The translations under genes and the position numbers were made by a program. A stretch of DNA of 41,232 nt from a virus. Its lineage: Duplodnaviria; Heunggongvirae; Uroviricota; Caudoviricetes. The stretch is taken from IMG/VR virus record IMGVR_UViG_3300028832_002797; one strand, given 5' to 3'. Under the pieces are notes generated by a model, which did no database searches, was not told the origin of the DNA, and saw only the letters and a list, made by a program, of their open reading frames with translations. Below are positions 19 to 31,230 of the stretch, in pieces (the first letter of the stretch is position 1; each line of letters starts with the position of its first letter).

Positions 19-28
19 ATATGTTTAG

Positions 29-104
29 CTGTTTACAATGGAGTCGAACCAATACCTCTCACCCGCTGCAGCGGGAAGCGCTCTGCCAGTTGAGCTAGTA
101 AACA
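29..104 (-). tRNA. tRNA-like gene with non-canonical anticodon arm (identity undetermined, GCA/Cys-like)
   Basis: Acceptor TGTTTAC/GTAAACA, D-arm GCTC-AACTGGCA-GAGC, T-arm ATTGG-TTCGACT-CCATT; anticodon arm contains the palindrome CCCGCTGCAGCGGG and about 3 extra nt; no CCA. Confidence 0.7.
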
Positions 105-1724: not shown

Positions 1725-2315
1725 TTAGTCCTTATAAAGTTGGTATTTCTTACTCAACTTATGACTGATGTCATCGCTTAACGGTTTGAACCAGATACCT
1801 ACACGACAACGACCGACACCGTTCTCGTCAGTAAATTCCGGAGTAAGATCCGTCTTGCATACATCATCGATATAACCAAAATCCTGTCCTTCGACAAGGC
1901 CGAGTTCCTTTGCAACATCAACTACCTTCATAAGATGATTAAGATTCTTAGCTTCACAGATAGTCTTGGTAAAGATACCGTTCACGTAATCATTCCAAAT
2001 ATCTTTTGAAAGTTCGATACCGATAGAATATGTCTTTCTCGGATTTTCTTCCGGATATTTAAATGTTTTCTCACCACGTTCATGCGCTGCTTTGGCTGCT
2101 TTATAAACAGCTGGATGTCTATAACGTGTCCAATAATTTGGGTCGCCGTTAATTTCCGTTGGCAAGTTTACGAATTCGTTATCCTTGATTCGACCTTGCG
2201 CAACAAAACTCTTGAGCAAGTTCATCCAATATCCTTCAGCACAATGGCCGACCATAGCCGCGAGCTTGCCCGCATGAAGATTCAAATCTTTTCTAATGAT
2301 AAATAAACGTCTCAT
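1725..2315 (-). CDS. Peptidyl-tRNA hydrolase, Pth2 family, with internal insertion
   Basis: IIRKDLNLHAGKLAAMVGH, TKTICEA, IDDVCKTD, VGIWFKP; start moved to the ATG overlapping the upstream TGA. Confidence 0.75.
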   Translation of the reverse strand: MRRLFIIRKDLNLHAGKLAAMVGHCAEGYWMNLLKSFVAQGRIKDNEFVNLPTEINGDPNYWTRYRHPAVYKAAKAAHERGEKTFKYPEENPRKTYSIGIELSKDIWNDYVNGIFTKTICEAKNLNHLMKVVDVAKELGLVEGQDFGYIDDVCKTDLTPEFTDENGVGRCRVGIWFKPLSDDISHKLSKKYQLYKD

Positions 2316-2671
2316 AGCCAATCCTTTACAGAGTTTAGAAACTTAATAAGTTCAGAAATAGAATAATATCTATTCTTGATACTACCGATAATGTTATCTG
2401 TGTATAAATCGTCTTGTTCACTGATTTTCCATGAATATTCCAAAGGATGTTCTTTGTTGACATAAACCGTGATGTCATACCCATGACCGAAATCAATCTT
2501 AACCGCATTCATAAATTTCTGGTTAGATACATATAATGGAAATGCCTGTTTTAACCGGCCTCTAAGATTTCCAACATACGGTTTCAAAAACTCAGCTTCT
2601 GCTTGAAGCCGTTTTCCGTATTCTGCAAGTTCTTTATTTATTTGTCTACAGCTTTCGTCGTCTTTAAGCAT
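2312..2671 (-). CDS. Hypothetical protein
   Basis: 119-aa ORF tiling the minus-strand gene array. Confidence 0.6.
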   Translation of the reverse strand: MLKDDESCRQINKELAEYGKRLQAEAEFLKPYVGNLRGRLKQAFPLYVSNQKFMNAVKIDFGHGYDITVYVNKEHPLEYSWKISEQDDLYTDNIIGSIKNRYYSISELIKFLNSVKDWL

Positions 2672-3078: not shown

Positions 3079-3593
3079 TAATCTACCTTTATATTAACGG
3101 TTTTCTCAACATATTCAACATTTGCCTTTTTATAAGCACGATACTTCTTCCAGTAATCCTTTGTATCTTCAAACAATGTATAGTACCAGCCACGTTTGTC
3201 CAATTCAATAAACAATGCATACATTTCTTTTTGGACCTTTTCACCAGCCCAACCCCAACCGCGACGGTTACGATATTTTTCTTCAATGGCATAGACTTTA
3301 TCCCATAGTTCCTTGTCTTTACCAGTCAAGTCTTTAATATAGTACTCTTCTTCATAGTCGGTATTGTGAAATTTGTAATTTACTACAGCACAGATATGAT
3401 GATCATCCATTTCTCGACCATTGTGCTTGTGAACATATCCAAACTGATACCAATAATTTTTCGGTAATGTCGCATCAAAATCCTTCTTAATCGGATTTTC
3501 ATCCATATAATGCTGTGCCGATTTGATAGAAGAATAACCCATGCCCGCTTTGTCTAAGCTAACACCTTTATACATTGGAAAAATACGTTTCAT
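3078..3593 (-). CDS. Hypothetical protein
   Basis: 171-aa ORF with 1-nt stop/start overlaps. Confidence 0.65.
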   Translation of the reverse strand: MKRIFPMYKGVSLDKAGMGYSSIKSAQHYMDENPIKKDFDATLPKNYWYQFGYVHKHNGREMDDHHICAVVNYKFHNTDYEEEYYIKDLTGKDKELWDKVYAIEEKYRNRRGWGWAGEKVQKEMYALFIELDKRGWYYTLFEDTKDYWKKYRAYKKANVEYVEKTVNIKVD

Positions 3594-4783
3594 TAGAAAG
3601 CCGCCTTAAAATTATAAACTGGTTTGATAATCTTTTCGATAGTGCAAGTAGGTTCGATATTCAACATGATTTCTTCCATAGGCTTATAGGCCATAGGGCT
3701 TTCATCGATAGTAGCAGAAGAAACACAAGAAGTGAAAATTCCCTTCATTGCTTCCTTATAGTCCTTCATGGAAATAGAGTTCTTAGCATCAGCACGAGTC
3801 ATTAGACGACCAGCACCGTGAGGAGCAGAATAGTTCCAATCCGGATTTCCCTTACCGACACAAATCAAAGAACCGTCACGCATGTTCATTGGAATGATTA
3901 CACGTTCGCCTTCCTGAGCAGAAATAGAACCTTTGCGGAGAATCATGTTCTTGAGGTCGATATAGTTATGGATAGTTTCGAACTTTTCTGTAACCTTGAA
4001 ACCCATTTCCTTGACGATTACATCAAGCATAGCGGCACGGTTCAAAGCGGCGAACTGTTGGACGATTTCCATATCGTGCAAATAGTTAGCCATGTGCTCG
4101 CCAGTGAGGTAGGAAAGATTCTTAGGAACAGAGAAGTGGTCATAATCCTTCATGAGTTCCTTAATTTCAGCGTCAGTCTTTCCCTGAGCCTTATACTTGG
4201 AGATTTCAGCACCACGAATAGCGGTCAGGTCAGCACAATCCTTGATAGCGAGATTCTGCCAGTATTCACAGGTAGCGACACCTAAATGGCGAGAACCAGA
4301 ATGGATAACGATATAAAAAGCACCATCGTCGTCCTTATCGACTTCGATGAAGTGATTACCACCGCCAAGCGAACCTAAACTCAGAAGTTCTTCACGTCTC
4401 ACGTCAGCAATGAGTTCTTCAAACTTTTCATCGAATTCATTTGCGAAACGGTGACGATTGTTTCTGTGTTCCTTACCAGATGGAATCTTTTCCTTGATAA
4501 CCTTATCAAGTTTACCGAATTCAATAAACTTGTCTTTAAGCTTTGCGACAAGCATCCCGCAACCAATATCAACGCCCACAAGGTTAGGTACAACCTTATC
4601 CTTGATAGTCATAGTGGTTCCGACAGTACAATCCTTGCCCGCATGCACGTCAGGCATGATAGCAACATTAACATCGCGAGCCCAACACTGGCACATCATA
4701 TTCAAAATCTGTGAATATGCCGCATTGTCGATGTTATCTGTAAAAACTTTCGCAGTATTATATTTTCCTTGAATCTCAAGCAT
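3593..4783 (-). CDS. rtcB: RtcB-family RNA 2',3'-cyclic phosphate/5'-OH ligase
   Basis: MPDVHAG, VGVDIGCGM, GSLGGGNHFIEV, IHSGSR, HNY, RKG, SAPHGAGR; start at MLEIQG with AAGGAA RBS. Confidence 0.95.
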   Translation of the reverse strand: MLEIQGKYNTAKVFTDNIDNAAYSQILNMMCQCWARDVNVAIMPDVHAGKDCTVGTTMTIKDKVVPNLVGVDIGCGMLVAKLKDKFIEFGKLDKVIKEKIPSGKEHRNNRHRFANEFDEKFEELIADVRREELLSLGSLGGGNHFIEVDKDDDGAFYIVIHSGSRHLGVATCEYWQNLAIKDCADLTAIRGAEISKYKAQGKTDAEIKELMKDYDHFSVPKNLSYLTGEHMANYLHDMEIVQQFAALNRAAMLDVIVKEMGFKVTEKFETIHNYIDLKNMILRKGSISAQEGERVIIPMNMRDGSLICVGKGNPDWNYSAPHGAGRLMTRADAKNSISMKDYKEAMKGIFTSCVSSATIDESPMAYKPMEEIMLNIEPTCTIEKIIKPVYNFKAAF

Positions 4784-4794
4784 AATTAAATTCC

Positions 4795-5112
4795 TTAATA
4801 ATACGGTACTAAAATTACTTCCGGGCAGAATGTCCAATATGCAACAGATTCCCATTCTTCATGGTCAGAATCCTTATCATAACAAGTATCTTCTACCCAA
4901 GTCCAATCAAAATGTCCATCGTCATAATAAGCCTTACCTACAGCTCTCATTCCATAGGTACCGTCGTTATAAAGCACCCACAACATCGTACCGAGCATTT
5001 CATTAGTAGGTGCATCAAGTCGACGACGCCAACGAGTCAACGGAGTATATATAATCTTATCTTCATCCGTCAAGTTGTCGAGAACTTTCCTGTTAAACTT
5101 ATCGTAAGACAT
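4795..5112 (-). CDS. Hypothetical protein
   Basis: 105-aa ORF in array. Confidence 0.6.
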   Translation of the reverse strand: MSYDKFNRKVLDNLTDEDKIIYTPLTRWRRRLDAPTNEMLGTMLWVLYNDGTYGMRAVGKAYYDDGHFDWTWVEDTCYDKDSDHEEWESVAYWTFCPEVILVPYY

Positions 5113-6687: not shown

Positions 6688-7093
6688 TGATTAAATCATC
6701 ATATTTGTTGGCAAGAGTGTTAGAATCGCAAGCACGGTCATCTTCTTCTTGGAAAACGACGTGATATTTTGAAGCAACAGGGTCTACACCAAAATGTCTC
6801 TTAGTTATAGATAACAGGTTTTTGGCATATTGCATATTCGGAACGAGAATATCCTTTCCGTCATACATCATGCTTATAGGCTCAAAAGAAATATCGGTAA
6901 AATATGCTCTCTTTGCAAGTTCTTCAGCATTGTAATAAACGCTCTTCCAATCATGCTTGATTAAACCGAAGAATGACGGATCCTTCTTATACTGCACGAC
7001 ATAGTATGGCTTATTCTTTGGATGTAAATTCTTCCAGGCAAAATCGGAATCATACTTGGAAAGATAGTCTACTGCAATAATTCTGAATTTCAT
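6677..7093 (-). CDS. Hypothetical protein
   Basis: 138-aa ORF in array. Confidence 0.6.
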   Translation of the reverse strand: MKFRIIAVDYLSKYDSDFAWKNLHPKNKPYYVVQYKKDPSFFGLIKHDWKSVYYNAEELAKRAYFTDISFEPISMMYDGKDILVPNMQYAKNLLSITKRHFGVDPVASKYHVVFQEEDDRACDSNTLANKYDDLINED

Positions 7094-7512
7094 TACTTGT
7101 TTCCTTCGAAACGTTCTTTGAGTTTGAGAAAAGTATCGTAATCACGTTGTTCTTGAGCTTTGGCTTCGGCTTCGCGTTCAAGGCGACGTTTTTCTTCCTC
7201 TTCACGCTTCTTGATAGCCCAATATTCCTTATGCCAGAGCTGGAATTCCTTAGCGGCTTCTTCCTTATCACCGTCAAGATACTTGGCAATAATATGAGTG
7301 GGAACAGGAAAATTATAGTATTCACCTTCGCCCATAATCACTTCTTCTACATGAAGCTCGCAAGTCTCTTCACCGAAATTGAGACTTTCGAAATACCAAG
7401 TGCCTTGGCAGTCTTTAAAGAACGGGTCAACCATGTGATAGAGTTCGTCTTCGACACTATCGACAATGGTTTTAGCATTTTGGAATTCTCTAAGTTTTTC
7501 CAGACCTGTCAT
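7093..7512 (-). CDS. Hypothetical protein with C-terminal charged helix
   Basis: 139-aa ORF with AAGGAG RBS. Confidence 0.65.
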   Translation of the reverse strand: MTGLEKLREFQNAKTIVDSVEDELYHMVDPFFKDCQGTWYFESLNFGEETCELHVEEVIMGEGEYYNFPVPTHIIAKYLDGDKEEAAKEFQLWHKEYWAIKKREEEEKRRLEREAEAKAQEQRDYDTFLKLKERFEGNK

Positions 7513-7521
7513 AATGACTCC

Positions 7522-8022
7522 TTAGAACGGACTTTTCGCGTTCTCAATAGTATCTTGAATATCAGCTACAAGCGCATCGAAACCAGAATATTCTTTTTGA
7601 ATCTTCGGAAGTAACTGATTATATTTAATACCTTCGCCAAACATATCCTTAATCTTTAAATACCAGATAACCTTGAATTCATTCGGTGTCTTATTCGGCC
7701 AGACCTTAATCTTCAGGTCATCGCGAGTGGTTTCATCCTTTTCCATATGGTCACAAATTTCGACACGAGAATACTTTGCAAGCTCATCCTTGATAGCTTG
7801 AAATTCTTCGTCGGTAAAGTGAACATCTTCCTCTTCTGGAGTAAAAAGTTCAGTGCGATGCATGATAGTCCACGCATCCATATCCAAATCCGGCTTTTCC
7901 TTACGCAAATCGAGCAGACGCTGATATTCGCGCTTGTTAACACGCTCCGGATGTTCCTTTACAGCCTTTTGAATGCTTTCAAAAAGTTTGTCCCAATGTT
8001 CTTGACGATCATTTTGTGACAT
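7522..8022 (-). CDS. Hypothetical protein
   Basis: 166-aa ORF directly after a promoter cassette. Confidence 0.65.
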   Translation of the reverse strand: MSQNDRQEHWDKLFESIQKAVKEHPERVNKREYQRLLDLRKEKPDLDMDAWTIMHRTELFTPEEEDVHFTDEEFQAIKDELAKYSRVEICDHMEKDETTRDDLKIKVWPNKTPNEFKVIWYLKIKDMFGEGIKYNQLLPKIQKEYSGFDALVADIQDTIENAKSPF

Positions 8023-8054
8023 GATAGATTTTCCTTTTATTTAAGTTTTCCTTT

Positions 8055-8092
8055 AATATAATAAAAAATACCCGTTTTGTCAACGGGTAATT
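8055..8092 (-). promoter_or_regulatory. Terminator-promoter cassette ending the tRNA cluster
   Basis: Stem TACCCGTT/AACGGGTA plus T6; TTGACA-N17-TATATT; 34 bp identical to 29347-29380. Confidence 0.85.
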
Positions 8093-8096
8093 TTTA

Positions 8097-8168
8097 TAGG
8101 GGCACTGCCACTCGAAGGCAGTTCCATAGGTTAAAAGCCTATTGCTTCACCATCAAAGCTTTACCCCC
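8097..8168 (-). tRNA. tRNA-Lys(UUU), atypical T-stem (C53-G61)
   Basis: GGGGGTA/TGCCCCT; D GCTT/AAGC; ATAGG-CTTTTAA-CCTAT; CTGCC-TTCGAGT-GGCAG; no CCA. Confidence 0.85.
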
Positions 8169-8177
8169 CCATGGTAG

Positions 8178-8265
8178 TTGAGGCGGCTGGATTTGAACCA
8201 GCGATGTGTCGTTAACCGTACAGGATTCAAAGTCCCGCGCCTTCACCGGACTAGGCAACGCCTCA
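8178..8265 (-). tRNA. tRNA-Gln(UUG) with long variable region
   Basis: TGAGGCG/CGCCTCA; CGGGA-CTTTGAA-TCCTG; about 18-nt variable region; GCTGG-TTCAAAT-CCAGC. Confidence 0.85.
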
Positions 8266-8269
8266 ATAG

Positions 8270-8349
8270 TACACCAGGTGGGCTTCGAACCCACATTTGC
8301 AGTTCCAGTTACGGCTAACGGATTAGAAGTCCGACCCGACTACTGGTGT
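8270..8349 (-). tRNA. tRNA-Arg(UCU)-like, D-arm missing, 23-nt variable region
   Basis: ACACCAG/CTGGTGT; 8-nt connector; CGGA-CTTCTAA-TCCG; GTGGG-TTCGAAG-CCCAC. Confidence 0.7.
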
Positions 8350-8356
8350 ATTTCTA

Positions 8357-8442
8357 TCGATGCATATGGAGTCGAACCATCCCGGACCGCCCTGGTGTTT
8401 ACTACGGGCCGGCTTATAAGACCGGTCCAAGGGAATGCATCG
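8357..8442 (-). tRNA. tRNA-Ile(UAU)-like, D-arm missing, 27-nt variable region
   Basis: CGATGCA/TGCATCG; 10-nt connector; CCGGT-CTTATAA-GCCGG; ATGG-TTCGACT-CCAT. Confidence 0.7.
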
Positions 8443-8478
8443 GTTAGTTTGTTTAGAGTGAGTAGCTCTCTCACTTCG

Positions 8479-8553
8479 TGCTGATGGTGGGGCTCGAACC
8501 CACGACTCCCATATTAAAAGTATGGTACTCTGGCCAAACTGAGTTACATCAAC
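8479..8553 (-). tRNA. tRNA-Lys(UUU)
   Basis: GTTGATG/CATCAGC; ACTC/GAGT D-stem; CCATA-CTTTTAA-TATGG; GTGGG-TTCGAGC-CCCAC. Confidence 0.93.
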
Positions 8554-8557
8554 ATTA

Positions 8558-8633
8558 TTGGGGCAGAGAGATTTGAACTCCCGAATAACGGTTTCAGAGA
8601 CCGTTGCCTTAGACCGGACTTGGCGATACCCCA
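8558..8633 (-). tRNA. tRNA-Gln(CUG)
   Basis: TGGGGTA/TGCCCCA; ACGGT-CTCTGAA-ACCGT; GGGAG-TTCAAAT-CTCTC. Confidence 0.93.
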
Positions 8634-8639
8634 GTATAT

Positions 8640-8669
8640 AAAAAGAGTTCCTGTATCGCTACAGGAACT
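8640..8669 (-). terminator. Intrinsic terminator (attenuator 2) 6 nt upstream of the tRNA cluster
   Basis: 10-bp stem AGTTCCTGTA/TACAGGAACT, GCGA tetraloop, then CTTTTT. Confidence 0.85.
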
Positions 8670-8701
8670 TCAAAACCAACATAACAATAGGATCTTGTTC
8701 G

Positions 8702-8773
8702 TTAACCCATAGCAAAACACCAGCATCTCTGCTGTTTTCTTATTTGTTTTACTTGTTTAACGAACCTTAACAT
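8702..8773 (-). CDS. Leader peptide 2, MLRFVKQVKQIRKQQRCWCFAMG
   Basis: AAAGGA RBS; codons 6-16 are AAA CAA GTA AAA CAA ATA AGA AAA CAG CAG AGA, matching the downstream tRNA anticodons. Confidence 0.85.
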   Translation of the reverse strand: MLRFVKQVKQIRKQQRCWCFAMG

Positions 8774-8790
8774 TTCTGTTTTCCTTTGTT

Positions 8791-8825
8791 ATTATATATA
8801 GTTTTTATTTTTCTTTTTTCGCTTT
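8791..8825 (-). promoter_or_regulatory. Class-2 promoter motif AAAGCGAAAA...CTATATATAAT
   Basis: GCG-N23-TATAAT. Confidence 0.7.
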
Positions 8826-8827
8826 AT

Positions 8828-8856
8828 AATATAGCAAAAAGTTTTTCTTTTGTAAA
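8828..8856 (-). promoter_or_regulatory. Sigma70-like promoter TTTACA-N17-TATATT
   Basis: Consensus; TAGGGGTTTACAAAAG is shared with the promoter at 315-343. Confidence 0.8.
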
Positions 8857-8875
8857 CCCCTAAAAAGAAAATTTT

Positions 8876-9316
8876 TTAGCGGTTATCGTTATCGATGATA
8901 ATTTTGGATTCCGGGCAGAATACAAAATTAAACAACGCTTCAGGGTCAAGGAGGAATGCCGCAAGTGTTGCAGCACTGTGAACGCTCTGATGGTCGATAT
9001 AACCAGTAATCTCGTTGACATACTTCGGGATAACAAGTTCAACCTGTTTCGAAGCGAAATATTCAACGACACTATCCCGGTTATCGTTATACTGGTCAGC
9101 CCAGGCGCCGTTCATACTGATAGCCACAAGCCAGTAGTCAATAAGCTGGCCAGGTTCTTCCAATACGTCATAACCCCAGTCATAGTTTCCATCACCTGCA
9201 GCCTTTACCATACACGGGTCTACGTGCAGGTTCGCGTATGCGCTTGCACACGGGAAACAAATCAGATGTTCAGATGAACTGTTAGTTTCGAATACTCCAA
9301 CTCTAAGTGTTTTCAT
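8876..9316 (-). CDS. Conserved phage protein with FETNSSS motif
   Basis: RVGVFETNSSSEH and GYIDHQS; family I recall as often adjacent to phage radical SAM genes. Confidence 0.65.
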   Translation of the reverse strand: MKTLRVGVFETNSSSEHLICFPCASAYANLHVDPCMVKAAGDGNYDWGYDVLEEPGQLIDYWLVAISMNGAWADQYNDNRDSVVEYFASKQVELVIPKYVNEITGYIDHQSVHSAATLAAFLLDPEALFNFVFCPESKIIIDNDNR

Positions 9317-9331
9317 TTTGTACCTCTTTTG

Positions 9332-9694
9332 TTATTTTCCTTCAAGCTCTTCAAGAGCATCAATAGTGTTTACATTCTCAATTTTCATTTCCAAAGACAA
9401 CGGATGTTTTTCATGTGTCAGAAAGTACGTAAGTTTAAGATACGGTTTTCCGAAAAAACAAAGATATAAATCATCTGTTACCGCCTTATTATAAAATGAC
9501 CACGACTCAGAAAATTGGTCCTTTATATTTTTACGGCCAGATACCGTTATATATTTCTTTCGTTCCCAGTCTTCAAGACGCATTATACCAACACTTGTAG
9601 ATAATGACGGATAACAAAGAATATACTCATTATTCTTATGATAATAAGCAATATATACGTTCTTACTATACCGCCAACACAACAAATTTCTCAT
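9332..9694 (-). CDS. Hypothetical protein, paralog of 9691-10044
   Basis: Shares ILCYP.L, KY.T..G.K, F.E.WS, LYL...GK.Y, MKIEN; start moved to MRNLL (ATGA overlap). Confidence 0.6.
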   Translation of the reverse strand: MRNLLCWRYSKNVYIAYYHKNNEYILCYPSLSTSVGIMRLEDWERKKYITVSGRKNIKDQFSESWSFYNKAVTDDLYLCFFGKPYLKLTYFLTHEKHPLSLEMKIENVNTIDALEELEGK

Positions 9695-10044
9695 AAAACC
9701 GTGTCTATCTCCGTCAAAGTCTGATAGTTTTCGATTTTCATTGCTACACGTTCGCAAATATCCTTATTGACTTCATATTTAAAAAAGTCTTCGAAATGTG
9801 CATAGATCTTTCCTTCGATTGAAAGATATAAGGATTTACTAAAATTCGTATCTTCAAACACTGACCAATGTTCACAGAATGGTTTTTCATAAGTTTTTGC
9901 ACCGGTAATAGTATAATACTTGTCGCGTACTTTAGCTCTCATGAACTTGAACAATATATTCATTGATTTTAAATCCGGATAACAAAGAATTATCCGACAT
10001 CCTTTCGGCTCAAAAGCGAAAAATATATCCTTAGATACTAACAT
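9691..10044 (-). CDS. Hypothetical protein, paralog of 9332-9694
   Basis: Same shared motifs. Confidence 0.6.
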   Translation of the reverse strand: MLVSKDIFFAFEPKGCRIILCYPDLKSMNILFKFMRAKVRDKYYTITGAKTYEKPFCEHWSVFEDTNFSKSLYLSIEGKIYAHFEDFFKYEVNKDICERVAMKIENYQTLTEIDTVL

Positions 10045-18304: not shown

Positions 18305-18330
18305 AATGTATTTCCTTTTTTAAATTTTAA

Positions 18331-18685
18331 TGGACCCGTTGGGAGTCGAACCCAAGTCTTGAATAACTTCAATATCCGTTCCTACAAGCTTTCCCTTCGA
18401 ATTTACTTATTTGTCATACCTATGCCCTGAAGGTCGGCGTCAGTATAAACTAGCCTGTGATTTTCGGAAATAATAGACAGACTTAACTATTTCCTAGCCC
18501 GTTTGCGACTGGACTCTACACTCAACGGGCGAACGGTATAGGTCCAGGGTTGCTATTGATTAAGCAGCCATTGCGTATGTATTAGCAATTATTTTTTTTC
18601 AGACTTTTTAACGTGTGTTTTCCCACGTCTGAGACCACGGCTTGCAACTAATATATTCATCACCCAATCGAAACCAGGCGAGCCC
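18331..18685 (-). ncRNA. ssrA: tmRNA, tag (A)ANTYAMAA
   Basis: Acceptor GGGCTCG/CGGGTCC-A with G3.U70; TGGTTTCGA D-loop; T-arm TTGGG-TTCGACT-CCCAA; tag frame 18560-18586 after ATAATT; no CCA encoded. Confidence 0.93.
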
Positions 18686-31162: not shown

Positions 31163-31230
31163 TTGCAGCCACCTGAATTGAACAGGCCCTCATAGTCATG
31201 GACTATGTATGCACCGTACAACAGACTGCG
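31163..31230 (-). tRNA. Isolated atypical tRNA(CAU), initiator-like C1:A72 mismatch
   Basis: CGCAGTC/GGCTGCA; mini D-arm TGTA-CGG-TGCA; CATAG-TCCATGA-CTATG; GCCTG-TTCAATT-CAGGT. Confidence 0.65.

What the first reader, a model, noticed from the sequence alone, without database searches (positions are those of the whole stretch)
8357..8442. D-armless tRNA-Ile(UAU) with a 27-nt variable region and an alternative fold
Seen: acceptor CGATGCA/TGCATCG, 10-nt connector, CCGGT-CU-UAU-AA-GCCGG arm, 27-nt variable region. An alternative helix TCCC-TT-GGACCG/CGGTCC-GGGA would disrupt the anticodon stem. Established: bacteria normally read AUA with lysidine-modified tRNA-Ile2 (CAU, made by TilS), so a UAU anticodon bypasses TilS. 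Inference: same non-canonical design as the neighbouring Arg gene. Two adjacent examples suggest a deliberate architecture rather than independent decay.
Basis: partly seen in the sequence, partly recalled or inferred. Interest (0 to 1): 0.75.

Follow-up and report, generated by a model that had tools for sequence, protein, structure and literature searches.

The report
Phage AUA tRNA with rewired core
This 86-base gene of a giant rumen phage looks like a working transfer RNA for the isoleucine codon AUA, but instead of the universal cloverleaf it has an 8+4 acceptor branch and no D hairpin, the D stem being rebuilt as a pseudoknot with the variable-arm loop; that shape is conserved in rumen and other phage contigs, missed by tRNA finders, and I found it in no paper.

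Summary
The element is real and lies on the minus strand (8357-8442), inside a six-gene phage tRNA operon.

- **Acceptor and T branch:** the acceptor stem is 8 bp and the T stem 4 bp (8/4). Six of 8 acceptor pairs and 1 of 4 T pairs change on both sides, and every cell is paired.
- **Connector:** it is not loose. Six of its bases (CCUUGG) pair with CCAGGG in the middle of the "variable region", whose ends (CCCG/CGGG) form a stem. This makes a pseudoknot that restores a 6-bp D-stem.
- **Support for the fold:** the rumen family has an invariant core. Support comes from 10 further distinct viral genes (IMG/VR contigs) with the same segment plan. The helix is paired in 36/36 cells in the six lineages tested, 4 of 6 pairs show compensatory changes, and 1 of 720 permutations matches.
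- **Function:** decoding of AUA as Ile is inferred from a canonical CU-UAU-AA loop, invariant A73, CCA encoded in nine of ten relatives, a codon-matched leader ORF containing AUA, and Ile-like AUA usage. Charging is untested.

The closest known relatives are 8/4 allo-tRNAs (UAU). The scan has noted similar "rewired D-arm" phage tRNAs on other DNA.

The parts
8357..8442 (-). Whole gene, 86 nt including discriminator A at 8357. RNA position p corresponds to window coordinate 8443 - p. No CCA is encoded.
   Evidence: Sequence; tRNA-Sec model 26.9 bits; homologs in L014/L120/L121 and L172-L178
8435..8442 (-). Acceptor stem, 5' strand (CGAUGCAU, RNA 1-8)
   Evidence: 8 bp; 6 of 8 pairs compensatory; 100% paired
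8358..8365 (-). Acceptor stem, 3' strand (AUGCAUCG, RNA 78-85). It is followed by the invariant A73-equivalent at 8357.
   Evidence: A invariant in all 13 family sequences
8427..8432 (-). 5' strand of the rebuilt D stem (CCUUGG, RNA 11-16). It is preceded by linker UC (8433-8434) and followed by A17 (8426).
   Evidence: Pairs 6/6 with RNA 48-53. The same helix is 36/36 paired in six lineages, with 4 of 6 pairs compensatory and 1/720 permutations matching. It is 6/6 in all 11 distinct UAU members.
8390..8395 (-). 3' strand of the rebuilt D stem (CCAGGG, RNA 48-53), lying inside the variable-arm loop
   Evidence: Defined independently of complementarity as the 6 nt 5' of the invariant YGGU motif
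8409..8425 (-). Anticodon arm CCGGU-CUUAUAA-GCCGG (RNA 18-34). The anticodon UAU is at 8416-8418.
   Evidence: Sequence; U.G to U-A change in L014; loop invariant in all UAU family members
8405..8408 (-). Variable-arm stem, 5' strand (CCCG, RNA 35-38)
   Evidence: Pairs with RNA 59-62. The equivalent stem is present in all relatives: own 22 bp against a permuted mean of 9.5, reached by 2/720 permutations.
8381..8384 (-). Variable-arm stem, 3' strand (CGGG, RNA 59-62). It abuts the T stem.
8385..8389 (-). CGGU motif plus C58 (RNA 54-58), directly 3' of the rebuilt D stem. GGU is invariant across the family. I infer it is a candidate stand-in for D-loop G18-G19.
   Evidence: Invariant columns G55 G56 U57; the role is inference
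8396..8404 (-). Loop segment UAGUAAACA (RNA 39-47). The AAAC(A) motif before the D-stem 3' strand recurs in most relatives.
8366..8380 (-). T arm AUGG-UUCGACU-CCAU (RNA 63-77), with a 4-bp stem
   Evidence: A-U to U-A compensatory change; canonical T loop
8457..8475 (-). Conserved hairpin AGUGAG-AGAGCUA-CUCACU in the 36-nt spacer upstream of the gene. It travels with the gene in every rumen locus whose 5' flank is held. Its role is unknown (processing signal?).
8702..8773 (-). Leader ORF of the operon. Codons 6-16 are AAA CAA GUA AAA CAA AUA AGA AAA CAG CAG AGA, matching the anticodons of the downstream genes, including UAU.
   Evidence: It is found with AUA kept in all six loci whose upstream sequence is held; the other three are cut off just upstream of the gene.

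Best explanation
The gene encodes a phage elongator tRNA that reads the isoleucine codon AUA with an unmodified-by-TilS UAU anticodon. It is built on a non-cloverleaf plan.

**Structure (shown by covariation)**
- A 12-bp acceptor/T branch split 8/4.
- A normal anticodon arm and a normal T loop.
- A variable arm whose 20-nt loop donates the 3' strand of a 6-bp D-stem. The 5' strand of that stem is the 9-nt connector.
- The helices of an L-shaped, tRNA-Sec-like body are therefore all present, but they are joined in a different order, as a pseudoknot.

**Function (inferred)**
- The RNA is transcribed with the Gln/Lys/Arg tRNAs of a leader-controlled operon.
- It is trimmed and receives CCA from a nucleotidyltransferase; a relative phage encodes one.
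- It is charged with isoleucine by the host IleRS through A35, U36, A37, A38 and A73.
- It supplies AUA decoding for phage genes without needing lysidine formation.
For: **Real, selected gene**
- 5 distinct rumen sequences share a 55-nt core that varies at only two positions.
- They carry three different, fully compensated acceptor stems.

**The 8/4 branch**
- All 85 cells pair; 7 pairs have changes on both sides; slid controls pair 29-41%.

**The rebuilt D stem**
- It is paired in 36/36 cells in six lineages. Pairs 3-6 all show compensatory changes. Only 1 of 720 permutations matches, and slid registers give 11-21 of 36.
- The variable-arm stem scores 22 against a permuted mean of 9.5.
- 11 distinct UAU members all show 8/4, A73 and 6/6 D-stem pairs; nine of the ten relatives outside the rumen family encode CCA.

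**tRNA hallmarks**
- A CU-UAU-AA loop, a UUCGACU T loop and position inside a tRNA operon.

**Link to the AUA codon**
- The leader ORF is rich in exactly the codons read by the operon's anticodons, including AUA.
- It is found, with AUA kept, in all six loci whose upstream sequence is held, although the other tRNA genes are shuffled.

**AUA is Ile-like in these phages**
- 79 aligned AUA codons pair with Ile 36, Leu 13, Val 12 and Ser 0 in orthologs of a 66%-identical relative.
- Controls: UUA pairs 61% with Leu and UCU 73% with Ser.
- AUA makes up 93 of 797 Ile codons.

**Dependence on host and phage enzymes**
- The relative has no TilS and no class-Ia synthetase domain.
- It does have a CCA-adding-family enzyme.

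**Weak expression hint**
- Contigs from two bovine-gut RNA libraries of one study span the gene: 8266-8480 and 8288-8438.
Against: - There is no direct evidence of processing, CCA addition, charging or ribosomal use. The RNA-library evidence is contigs only, with no strand or ends, from one study, and DNA carry-over is possible.
- Within the rumen family the core never varies. The pseudoknot is therefore inferred for this gene from architectural relatives, not from its own lineage.
- ViennaRNA, which cannot score pseudoknots, prefers a different helix that shortens the anticodon stem to 3 bp.
- The 411-kb relative also has a canonical-body tRNA-Ile(UAU) with a 41-nt insert. The 8/4 gene is therefore not the only possible phage AUA decoder there.
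- Six 8/4 allo-tRNA(UAU) species tested by Mukai et al. as amber suppressors were inactive in E. coli (PMC5389517). That assay removes the anticodon an IleRS would need.
- U34 would need to avoid reading AUG, and how it does so is unknown.
Confidence: 0.6

Rival explanations
1. A tRNA-shaped RNA that is not used for decoding. It could be a decoy or regulator, for example bait for a host anticodon nuclease or tRNA-modifying enzyme, or a counterpart of the allo-tRNA(UAU) species that Mukai et al. linked to toxin-antitoxin loci and found inactive in translation.
For: - The sequence invariance of the core, set against free change of the acceptor stem, is unusual for a plain tRNA.
- The relative phage has a second, canonical-body tRNA(UAU).
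- The window is rich in tRNA-repair and rescue genes: RtcB, Pth2 and tmRNA.
- The literature precedent is that allo-tRNA(UAU) species were inactive or toxic in E. coli (PMC5389517).
Against: - The gene keeps every feature needed for translation: a 12-bp acceptor/T branch, A73, a 7-nt loop with U33 and A37, and CCA encoded in relatives.
- It sits in an operon of ordinary decoders behind a leader ORF that contains its codon.
- No toxin-antitoxin genes lie next to it.
Confidence: 0.22
2. A working tRNA that is charged with an amino acid other than Ile. Candidates are Ser (as for allo-tRNAs, through the long variable arm) or Leu (as for nematode class II nev-tRNA(UAU), through A73). It would recode or mistranslate AUA.
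For: - The 8/4 branch and long variable arm are the marks of SerRS-charged allo-tRNAs (PMC5389517).
- Class II tRNAs with UAU are charged with Leu in nematodes (PMC3333845).
- A73 is the major LeuRS determinant in E. coli (my knowledge).
Against: - AUA codons of the phage align with Ile/Leu/Val and never with Ser (0 of 79). Their spectrum resembles AUU/AUC more than UUA.
- The discriminator is A, not the G/U of Ser-type allo-tRNAs.
- The variable-arm loop is tied up in the D stem, so it is not a free arm.
- The body is almost always paired with UAU; 2 of 13 related genes carry Arg anticodons. That fits anticodon-reading synthetases (IleRS, ArgRS) better than SerRS or LeuRS.
Confidence: 0.08
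3. One reading: a truly D-armless tRNA with a single-stranded 10-nt connector and an unstructured 27-nt variable region. It could switch into the helix UCCC-UU-GGACCG/CGGUCC-GGGA, which unwinds the anticodon stem.
For: - The alternative helix is the ViennaRNA optimum (-32.0 against about -26.4 kcal/mol for cloverleaf-like folds).
- Its central pairs have probability about 0.67.
Against: - The equivalent pairing is absent in relatives: 2-3 of 6 pairs in four of five lineages.
- The connector/variable-loop helix is 6/6 everywhere and covaries.
- ViennaRNA cannot evaluate the pseudoknotted fold.
Confidence: 0.06
4. A decayed tRNA pseudogene that has lost its D arm.
For: tRNA finders reject it, and the Rfam score is below threshold.
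Against: - The core is invariant.
- The acceptor, T and rebuilt D stems carry compensated changes.
- The gene is present in at least 8 rumen loci, and ten further distinct viral sequences share the same plan.
Confidence: 0.02

Closest known systems
8/4 allo-tRNAs, especially the allo-tRNA(UAU) group (Mukai et al. 2017, NAR, PMC5389517)
   Same: - A 12-bp acceptor/T branch split 8/4 and a long variable arm.
- UAU is the commonest anticodon of that group.
- That paper reports 8/4 tRNAs from phages and from bovine rumen bacteria, and notes that allo-tRNA(UAU) species have irregular cloverleafs.
   Different: - Allo-tRNAs are described with a tRNA-Sec-like D hairpin (long stem, tetraloop) and mostly G73 or U73. 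Here there is no D hairpin, the 6-bp D stem is made with the variable-arm loop, and the discriminator is always A.
- The context differs: a phage tRNA operon instead of toxin-antitoxin or transposon loci of soil Acidobacteria.
- The supplementary structures of that paper were not available to me, so overlap with some of their 'five-stem-junction' UAU species cannot be excluded.
Bacterial tRNA-Sec (Rfam RF01852)
   Same: An extended acceptor stem, a 6-bp D stem and a long variable arm. It is the only Rfam model that matches (26.9-30.6 bits).
   Different: - The score is far below the gathering score of 47.
- The anticodon is UAU, not UCA.
- The branch is 8/4, not 8/5.
- The D stem is formed in trans to the variable loop.
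- I saw no Sec machinery among the window proteins I scanned.
tRNA-Ile(UAU) that reads AUA without lysidine (Mycoplasma mobile; Bacillus subtilis tilS suppressors) - from my knowledge, not checked in a paper here
   Same: A UAU anticodon used for AUA, so TilS is dispensable. The A35, U36, A37, A38 and A73 determinants are present.
   Different: Those tRNAs are ordinary 7/5 cloverleafs.
D-armless mitochondrial tRNAs (mammalian mt-tRNA-Ser(AGY), nematode mt-tRNA-Ser(UCU); review PMC7609411)
   Same: There is no D hairpin between the acceptor and anticodon stems.
   Different: - Mitochondrial forms are shrunken and flexible, with degenerate T loops and no replacement helix.
- This RNA is longer than a normal tRNA, keeps a canonical T loop and rebuilds the D stem.
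Nematode nev-tRNA(UAU) (Hamashima et al. 2012, PMC3333845)
   Same: A class II-like body combined with the Ile anticodon UAU.
   Different: It is a eukaryotic 7/5 cloverleaf with a normal D arm and is charged with Leu. It has no pseudoknot.

Membership tests
Canonical tRNA (Rfam RF00005 cloverleaf) | Score at or above the gathering score (29 bits) with a 7/5 acceptor/T branch and a D hairpin | tested here: not met
   It is not reported by the gathering search. In the permissive search only tRNA-Sec is listed for this place. ARAGORN is silent. There is no D hairpin, and the branch is 8/4.
Canonical tRNA (functional definition) | 7-nt anticodon loop with U33 and purine 37; T loop UUCRANY; 12-bp acceptor/T stack; single discriminator | tested here: met
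   The loop is CUUAUAA and the T loop UUCGACU. The stack is 8+4 = 12 bp with covariation, and A73 is invariant.
Canonical tRNA (functional definition) | Processed, CCA-tailed, aminoacylated and used by ribosomes | not testable with these tools
   Only RNA-library contigs cover the gene. CCA is encoded in nine of the ten relatives outside the rumen family. A CCA-adding-family gene is present in a relative phage.
8/4 allo-tRNA (Mukai 2017) | 12-bp acceptor branch composed of an 8-bp acceptor stem and a 4-bp T stem | tested here: met
   It is the only one of about 114 distinct long-variable-arm viral tRNA(UAU) sequences in the first sample that fits 8/4 only.
8/4 allo-tRNA (Mukai 2017) | tRNA-Sec-like D stem-loop (long stem with tetraloop) | tested here: not met
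   Only 9 nt lie between the acceptor and anticodon stems. The mini-hairpin UCC/GGA has probability 0.001. A 6-bp stem exists, but it is formed with the variable-arm loop.
8/4 allo-tRNA (Mukai 2017) | Long variable arm | tested here: met
   The arm is 28 nt, with a 4-bp stem (35-38/59-62) and a 20-nt loop. The loop is not free.
8/4 allo-tRNA (Mukai 2017) | Discriminator G73 or U73 (Ser identity) | tested here: not met
   A is invariant in all 13 sequences. The rule is quoted from PMC5389517.
tRNA-Sec (RF01852) | Gathering score of 47 bits; anticodon UCA | tested here: not met
   It scores 26.9 bits (window) and 30.6 bits (L014). The anticodon is UAU.
tRNA-Ile (AUA decoder) | Anticodon reading AUA, plus A37, A38 and A73 (E. 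coli IleRS identity set, from my knowledge of Nureki et al. 1994) | tested here: met
   U34, A35, U36, A37, A38 and A73 are present and invariant. AUA is used as an Ile-like codon.
tRNA-Ile (AUA decoder) | Charged by IleRS with isoleucine | not testable with these tools
   This needs biochemistry. The relative phage has no IleRS, so the host enzyme would be used.
D-armless mitochondrial-type tRNA | D arm replaced by an unpaired connector, with a reduced body | tested here: not met
   The connector pairs 6/6 with the variable loop and covaries. The RNA is 86 nt with a canonical T arm.

The most novel reading that the evidence does not exclude
Phages of rumen and other environments use, in ordinary translation, a family of tRNAs whose core is topologically rewired. 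The branch is 8/4, there is no D hairpin, and the D stem is formed as a pseudoknot with the variable-arm loop. This would be the first functional non-cloverleaf tRNA outside organelles. Possible reasons for selection are that the altered body escapes host tRNA-targeting nucleases, or that it frees AUA (and AGA/CGN) decoding from host modification enzymes such as TilS.
Probability: 0.5. Interest if true: 0.88.

Novelty: new variant of a known kind. Interest (0 to 1): 0.77.

Why it matters
**For the view of tRNA structure.** The cloverleaf is treated as universal outside mitochondria. A conserved, covariation-supported tRNA body with the same helices wired in a different order would show that the L-shape can be reached by another topology.

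**For annotation.** It would also show that current gene finders systematically miss part of the phage decoding repertoire. ARAGORN missed all 13 copies examined, and Rfam's tRNA model did not report this one.

**For biology.** It bears on three questions:
- how phages read AUA without lysidine;
- how IleRS recognises a U34 tRNA with a foreign body;
- whether unusual tRNA bodies are a counter-measure to tRNA-cleaving defence systems.

**For applications.** 8/4 allo-tRNAs are already used as orthogonal chassis for genetic-code expansion. A pseudoknotted 8/4 body is a new candidate scaffold.

Tried and rejected
**Searches that found nothing or little**
- Exact 22-nt anticodon-arm pattern in IMG/VR: no hit.
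- Flanking protein 7522-8022 as a probe: no relatives.
- blastn of 7000-10000 against GenBank phages: no match.
- No whole genome is held for the window.
More divergent rumen relatives known from the protein search (P0004-P0013) could therefore not be fetched.
- The family pattern in GTDB genomes: 0 hits.
- Literature searches for D-armless or 8-bp-acceptor phage tRNAs found nothing pertinent.
- The supplements of PMC5389517 are not held.

**Folds considered and rejected**
- Mini D hairpin UCC-CUU-GGA, which is the tRNA-Sec model's alignment: probability 0.001.
- Helix X (connector with RNA 57-62), my own first idea from thermodynamics and from analogy with the Arg-type and L031-class genes. 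I rejected it after relatives showed a different, covarying partner.

**Methods that did not work**
- MAFFT alignments A4 and A5 put the 3' strand of the rebuilt D stem out of register. The count of structure pairs could not be used for it, so a motif-anchored count in Python was used instead.
- AUA at conserved positions of single enzymes: too few codons to test.
- PDB search with RtcB at E <= 1e-20: nothing returned.

**Reads and other calls**
- Read laying: parts of the operon without RNA-library cover say nothing. Contigs give no strand or ends.
- The ARAGORN 'tRNA-Met' at 31163-31230 has no Rfam support.

Full report
**1. What is there**

The window is a piece of a giant phage genome. All long ORFs lie on the minus strand. 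It carries RtcB, a PurZ-like protein, radical-SAM and phosphoesterase genes, Pth2, a tmRNA and the cow-rumen-2 RNA. No whole genome is held for it.

The finding lies in a minus-strand tRNA operon (8097-8633). ARAGORN and Rfam see five genes there: Gln-CUG, Lys-UUU, an odd Arg-UCU, a long Gln-UUG and Lys-UUU. The 86 nt at 8357-8442 are called by neither ARAGORN nor Rfam's tRNA model. Only the tRNA-Sec model matches, at 26.9 bits against a gathering score of 47, and it aligns the sequence as an 8-bp acceptor plus a 4-bp T stem.

Read on the minus strand the RNA is:

CGAUGCAU-UC-CCUUGG-A-CCGGU-CUUAUAA-GCCGG-CCCG-UAGUAAACA-CCAGGG-CGGUC-CGGG-AUGG-UUCGACU-CCAU-AUGCAUCG-A

**2. Homologs and the acceptor branch**

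- DNA-pattern scans found the same gene in three IMG/VR contigs, which are identical to one another. One of them is a 411-kb, 98%-complete genome, G001.
- Seven metagenome contigs also carry it.
- Together these give five distinct sequences with three unrelated acceptor-stem sequences: CGAUGCAU, UGGCAUAC and AGACGUAU. All form 8 bp.
- The count of structure pairs gives 100% paired cells. Six of 8 acceptor pairs and 1 of 4 T pairs change on both sides. The 8th pair has four different pair types. Slid controls pair 29-41%.
- The 55-nt core between the stems varies at only two positions. One is G30/A30, which turns U.G into U-A. The other is U42/C42.

**3. The core fold**

ViennaRNA prefers a helix between the connector and the 3' end of the 'variable region'. 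Its MFE is -32.0 kcal/mol and it leaves a 3-bp anticodon stem. Cloverleaf-like folds and a version compatible with the full anticodon stem all lie near -26.4. Because the rumen family's core does not vary, its own lineage cannot decide between folds.

Two other D-hairpin-less phage tRNA types gave a lead. A 7/5 tRNA(UAU) class (L031, L043, L051, L102) has a 3-bp helix between the connector and a segment 3' of the anticodon arm, and 3 of 3 pairs are compensatory. The window's Arg gene and its ACG paralog in G001 share a similar helix with one compensatory change.

After reading earlier scan notes that mention 8/4 UAU genes in marine phages, I scanned again and filtered by architecture. This gave 10 further distinct UAU sequences with exactly the window's segment plan: 8 | 2 | 6 | 1 | 5-7-5 | variable | 4-7-4 | 8 | A.

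I defined the partner strand independently of complementarity, as the 6 nt just 5' of an invariant YGGU motif. Results:
- The connector hexamer is paired in 36 of 36 cells in six lineages.
- The pairs are CCUUGG/CCAGGG, CCCGGC/GCCGGG, CCAACC/GGUUGG, CCUUCC/GGGAGG, CCAUUC/GAGUGG and CCUGCG/CGCAGG.
- Pairs 3-6 all show double changes.
- Only the identity permutation of 720 reaches this score. Slid registers give 11-21 of 36.
- All 11 distinct UAU members are 6/6.
- The two ends of the variable region also pair. Their own score is 22 bp against a permuted mean of 9.5, reached by 2 of 720 permutations.
- The two helices cross, so the core is a pseudoknot.
- The thermodynamically favoured rival helix is not conserved: 2-3 of 6 pairs in four of five relatives.

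The window's sequence fits the family register without gaps:
- C11-G53, C12-G52, U13.G51, U14-A50, G15-C49, G16-C48;
- C35-G62, C36-G61, C37-G60, G38-C59.

**4. Reading of the architecture (inference)**

The helices of a tRNA-Sec-like body are all present: an 8/4 acceptor-T stack, a 6-bp D stem, a 5-bp anticodon stem and a variable stem. The D stem's 3' strand comes from the variable-arm loop.

The strand polarity puts the acceptor-proximal end of the D stem, and the invariant GG of YGGU that follows it, where the D loop's G18-G19 would meet the T loop. I could not run 3D modelling, so this remains a proposal.

**5. Function**

*Evidence that it is used as an AUA decoder*
- The anticodon loop, T loop and A73 are canonical and invariant, and nine of the ten relatives outside the rumen family encode CCA.
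- The window family and its operon neighbours lack CCA, but the 411-kb relative encodes a CCA-adding-family enzyme.
- The operon is preceded by a 23-codon ORF whose codons 6-16 are AAA CAA GUA AAA CAA AUA AGA AAA CAG CAG AGA. Every anticodon of the operon, including UAU, is represented.
- By my own rough estimate from the codon frequencies, such a run is expected about 0.001 times by chance in the window.
- The ORF, with its AUA codon, is found in all six loci whose upstream sequence is held, although the other tRNA genes are reshuffled or replaced. The 8/4 gene is the only AUA-matching gene in each operon.
- AUA is used (93 of 797 Ile codons) and behaves as an Ile-like codon. In 52 ortholog pairs with G001, 79 AUA codons align with Ile 36, Leu 13, Val 12, Met 3 and Ser 0. 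UUA and UCU controls align mainly with Leu and Ser.
- G001 has no TilS and no class-Ia synthetase domain. Charging must be by the host, and a UAU anticodon removes the need for lysidine.

*Caveats*
- G001 also carries a canonical-body tRNA-Ile(UAU) with a 41-nt insert.
- The expression evidence is only two short RNA-library contigs from one study.
- Mukai et al. found allo-tRNA(UAU) derivatives inactive in E. coli.

**6. Comparison with what is known**

8/4 and 9/3 tRNAs were described by Mukai et al. (PMC5389517). UAU is the commonest anticodon among their allo-tRNAs, and 8/4 tRNA-Ser and tRNA-His occur in phages and rumen bacteria.

This gene shares the 8/4 branch, the long variable arm and the anticodon. 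It lacks the defining Sec-like D hairpin and the G/U discriminator. It is not a mitochondrial-type armless tRNA, because the connector is paired. I found no paper describing a D stem rebuilt with the variable loop.

Earlier notes of this scan report 'rewired D-arm' Ile and Arg tRNAs in many other phage sequences. One such report was later partly overturned. I treated them as leads and tested the pairing on sequences I fetched myself.

Two genes with Arg anticodons (L291 UCU, L283 ACG) show the same 8/4 plan by my hand parse: 5 of 6 and 5 of 5 D-stem pairs, with a CGGA motif instead of YGGU. They were not analysed further.

**7. Verdict**

- The gene is real and under strong selection (about 0.95).
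- The 8/4 branch is established, and the pseudoknotted D stem is well supported for the family (about 0.85 for this gene).
- Function as an Ile-inserting AUA decoder is the best explanation (0.6), but it rests on inference.

Noticed in passing
viral loci L003, L005, L028, L050 and about 70 others: Many viral tRNA(UAU) genes are ordinary 7/5 cloverleafs with a long variable arm. In 67 of 77 distinct sequences that arm carries YNGAUNR, for example CAGAUUA or CUGAUAA. This looks like a copy of the tRNA-Ile(GAU) anticodon loop and is a possible second IleRS handle for a U34 tRNA.
   Followed up: partly
window 8270-8349 (-); L169:25-104 (G001:156174-156253): The neighbouring tRNA-Arg(UCU) also lacks a D hairpin but is 7/5. 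It has a paralog with anticodon ACG in the 411-kb relative that shares the motif CCGUAACUGGARCUG. A connector helix 8-11/47-50 shows one compensatory change. Other lineages carry an ordinary Arg(UCU) at this place.
   Followed up: partly
L031:4144-4220, L043:513-589(-), L051:6727-6803(-), L102:8349-8424; also L190, L222, L235, L238, L255, L262, L267, L272: These form a separate 7/5 class of D-hairpin-less viral tRNA(UAU) with a 7-nt connector. In the four aligned sequences (L031, L043, L051, L102) three connector bases pair with three bases after an RGAAA motif, with 3 of 3 pairs compensatory. A small hairpin with a YNGG loop follows.
   Followed up: partly
L166:84-196, L167:86-200 and 331-442 (G001:140983-141095, 148935-149049, 149180-149291): Three tRNAs of the 411-kb relative carry inserts of 40-52 nt in the anticodon arm that share a UUCCUAU motif near their 3' ends. 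One is a canonical-body tRNA-Ile(UAU), called by ARAGORN as i(31,41). They are too short for group I introns. The phage type encodes RtcB (window 3593-4855), so protein-dependent tRNA splicing is possible.
   Followed up: partly
window 8702-8773 (-) and terminator-like hairpin 8640-8669: The leader ORF MLRFVKQVKQIRKQQRCWCFAMG uses the codons read by the operon's tRNAs. It is conserved in relatives and is a candidate attenuator. Other reports of the scan cover it.
   Followed up: partly
window 8457-8475 (-): The hairpin AGUGAG-AGAGCUA-CUCACU and the spacer UAAACAAACUA precede the 8/4 gene in every rumen locus whose 5' flank is held, whatever the upstream tRNA. Their role is unknown.
   Followed up: no
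window 8177-8265 (-): tRNA-Gln(UUG) has a 17-nt variable region, which is class II-like. It is nearly identical in the 411-kb relative.
   Followed up: no
window 28-104 (-); L168:81-151: These tRNA-like genes have normal acceptor, D and T arms, but a 4-nt loop (CCCGC-UGCA-GCGGG) replaces the anticodon loop. ARAGORN calls them 'tRNA-???'.
   Followed up: no
G001 (411-kb relative): The relative has 56 tRNA-model hits. They include long-variable-arm Asn(GUU), Pro(CGG) and Cys(GCA, possibly 8/4) genes and A34 anticodons (Pro AGG, Thr AGU). ARAGORN found no tRNA-Ile(GAU). L014:4152-4243 is a Lys(UUU) gene with a 15-nt insert in the D loop.
   Followed up: no
L291 and L283: Two viral genes have the same 8/4 pseudoknotted plan but Arg anticodons (UCU, ACG). 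They have a CGGA motif in place of YGGU and non-A discriminators.
   Followed up: no
window 1725-2321 (-), 3593-4855 (-), 18328-18685 (-): Pth2-like peptidyl-tRNA hydrolase, RtcB ligase and a tmRNA (tag ANTYAMAA) cluster with the tRNA operons. Together they form a translation-rescue and tRNA-repair neighbourhood.
   Followed up: no
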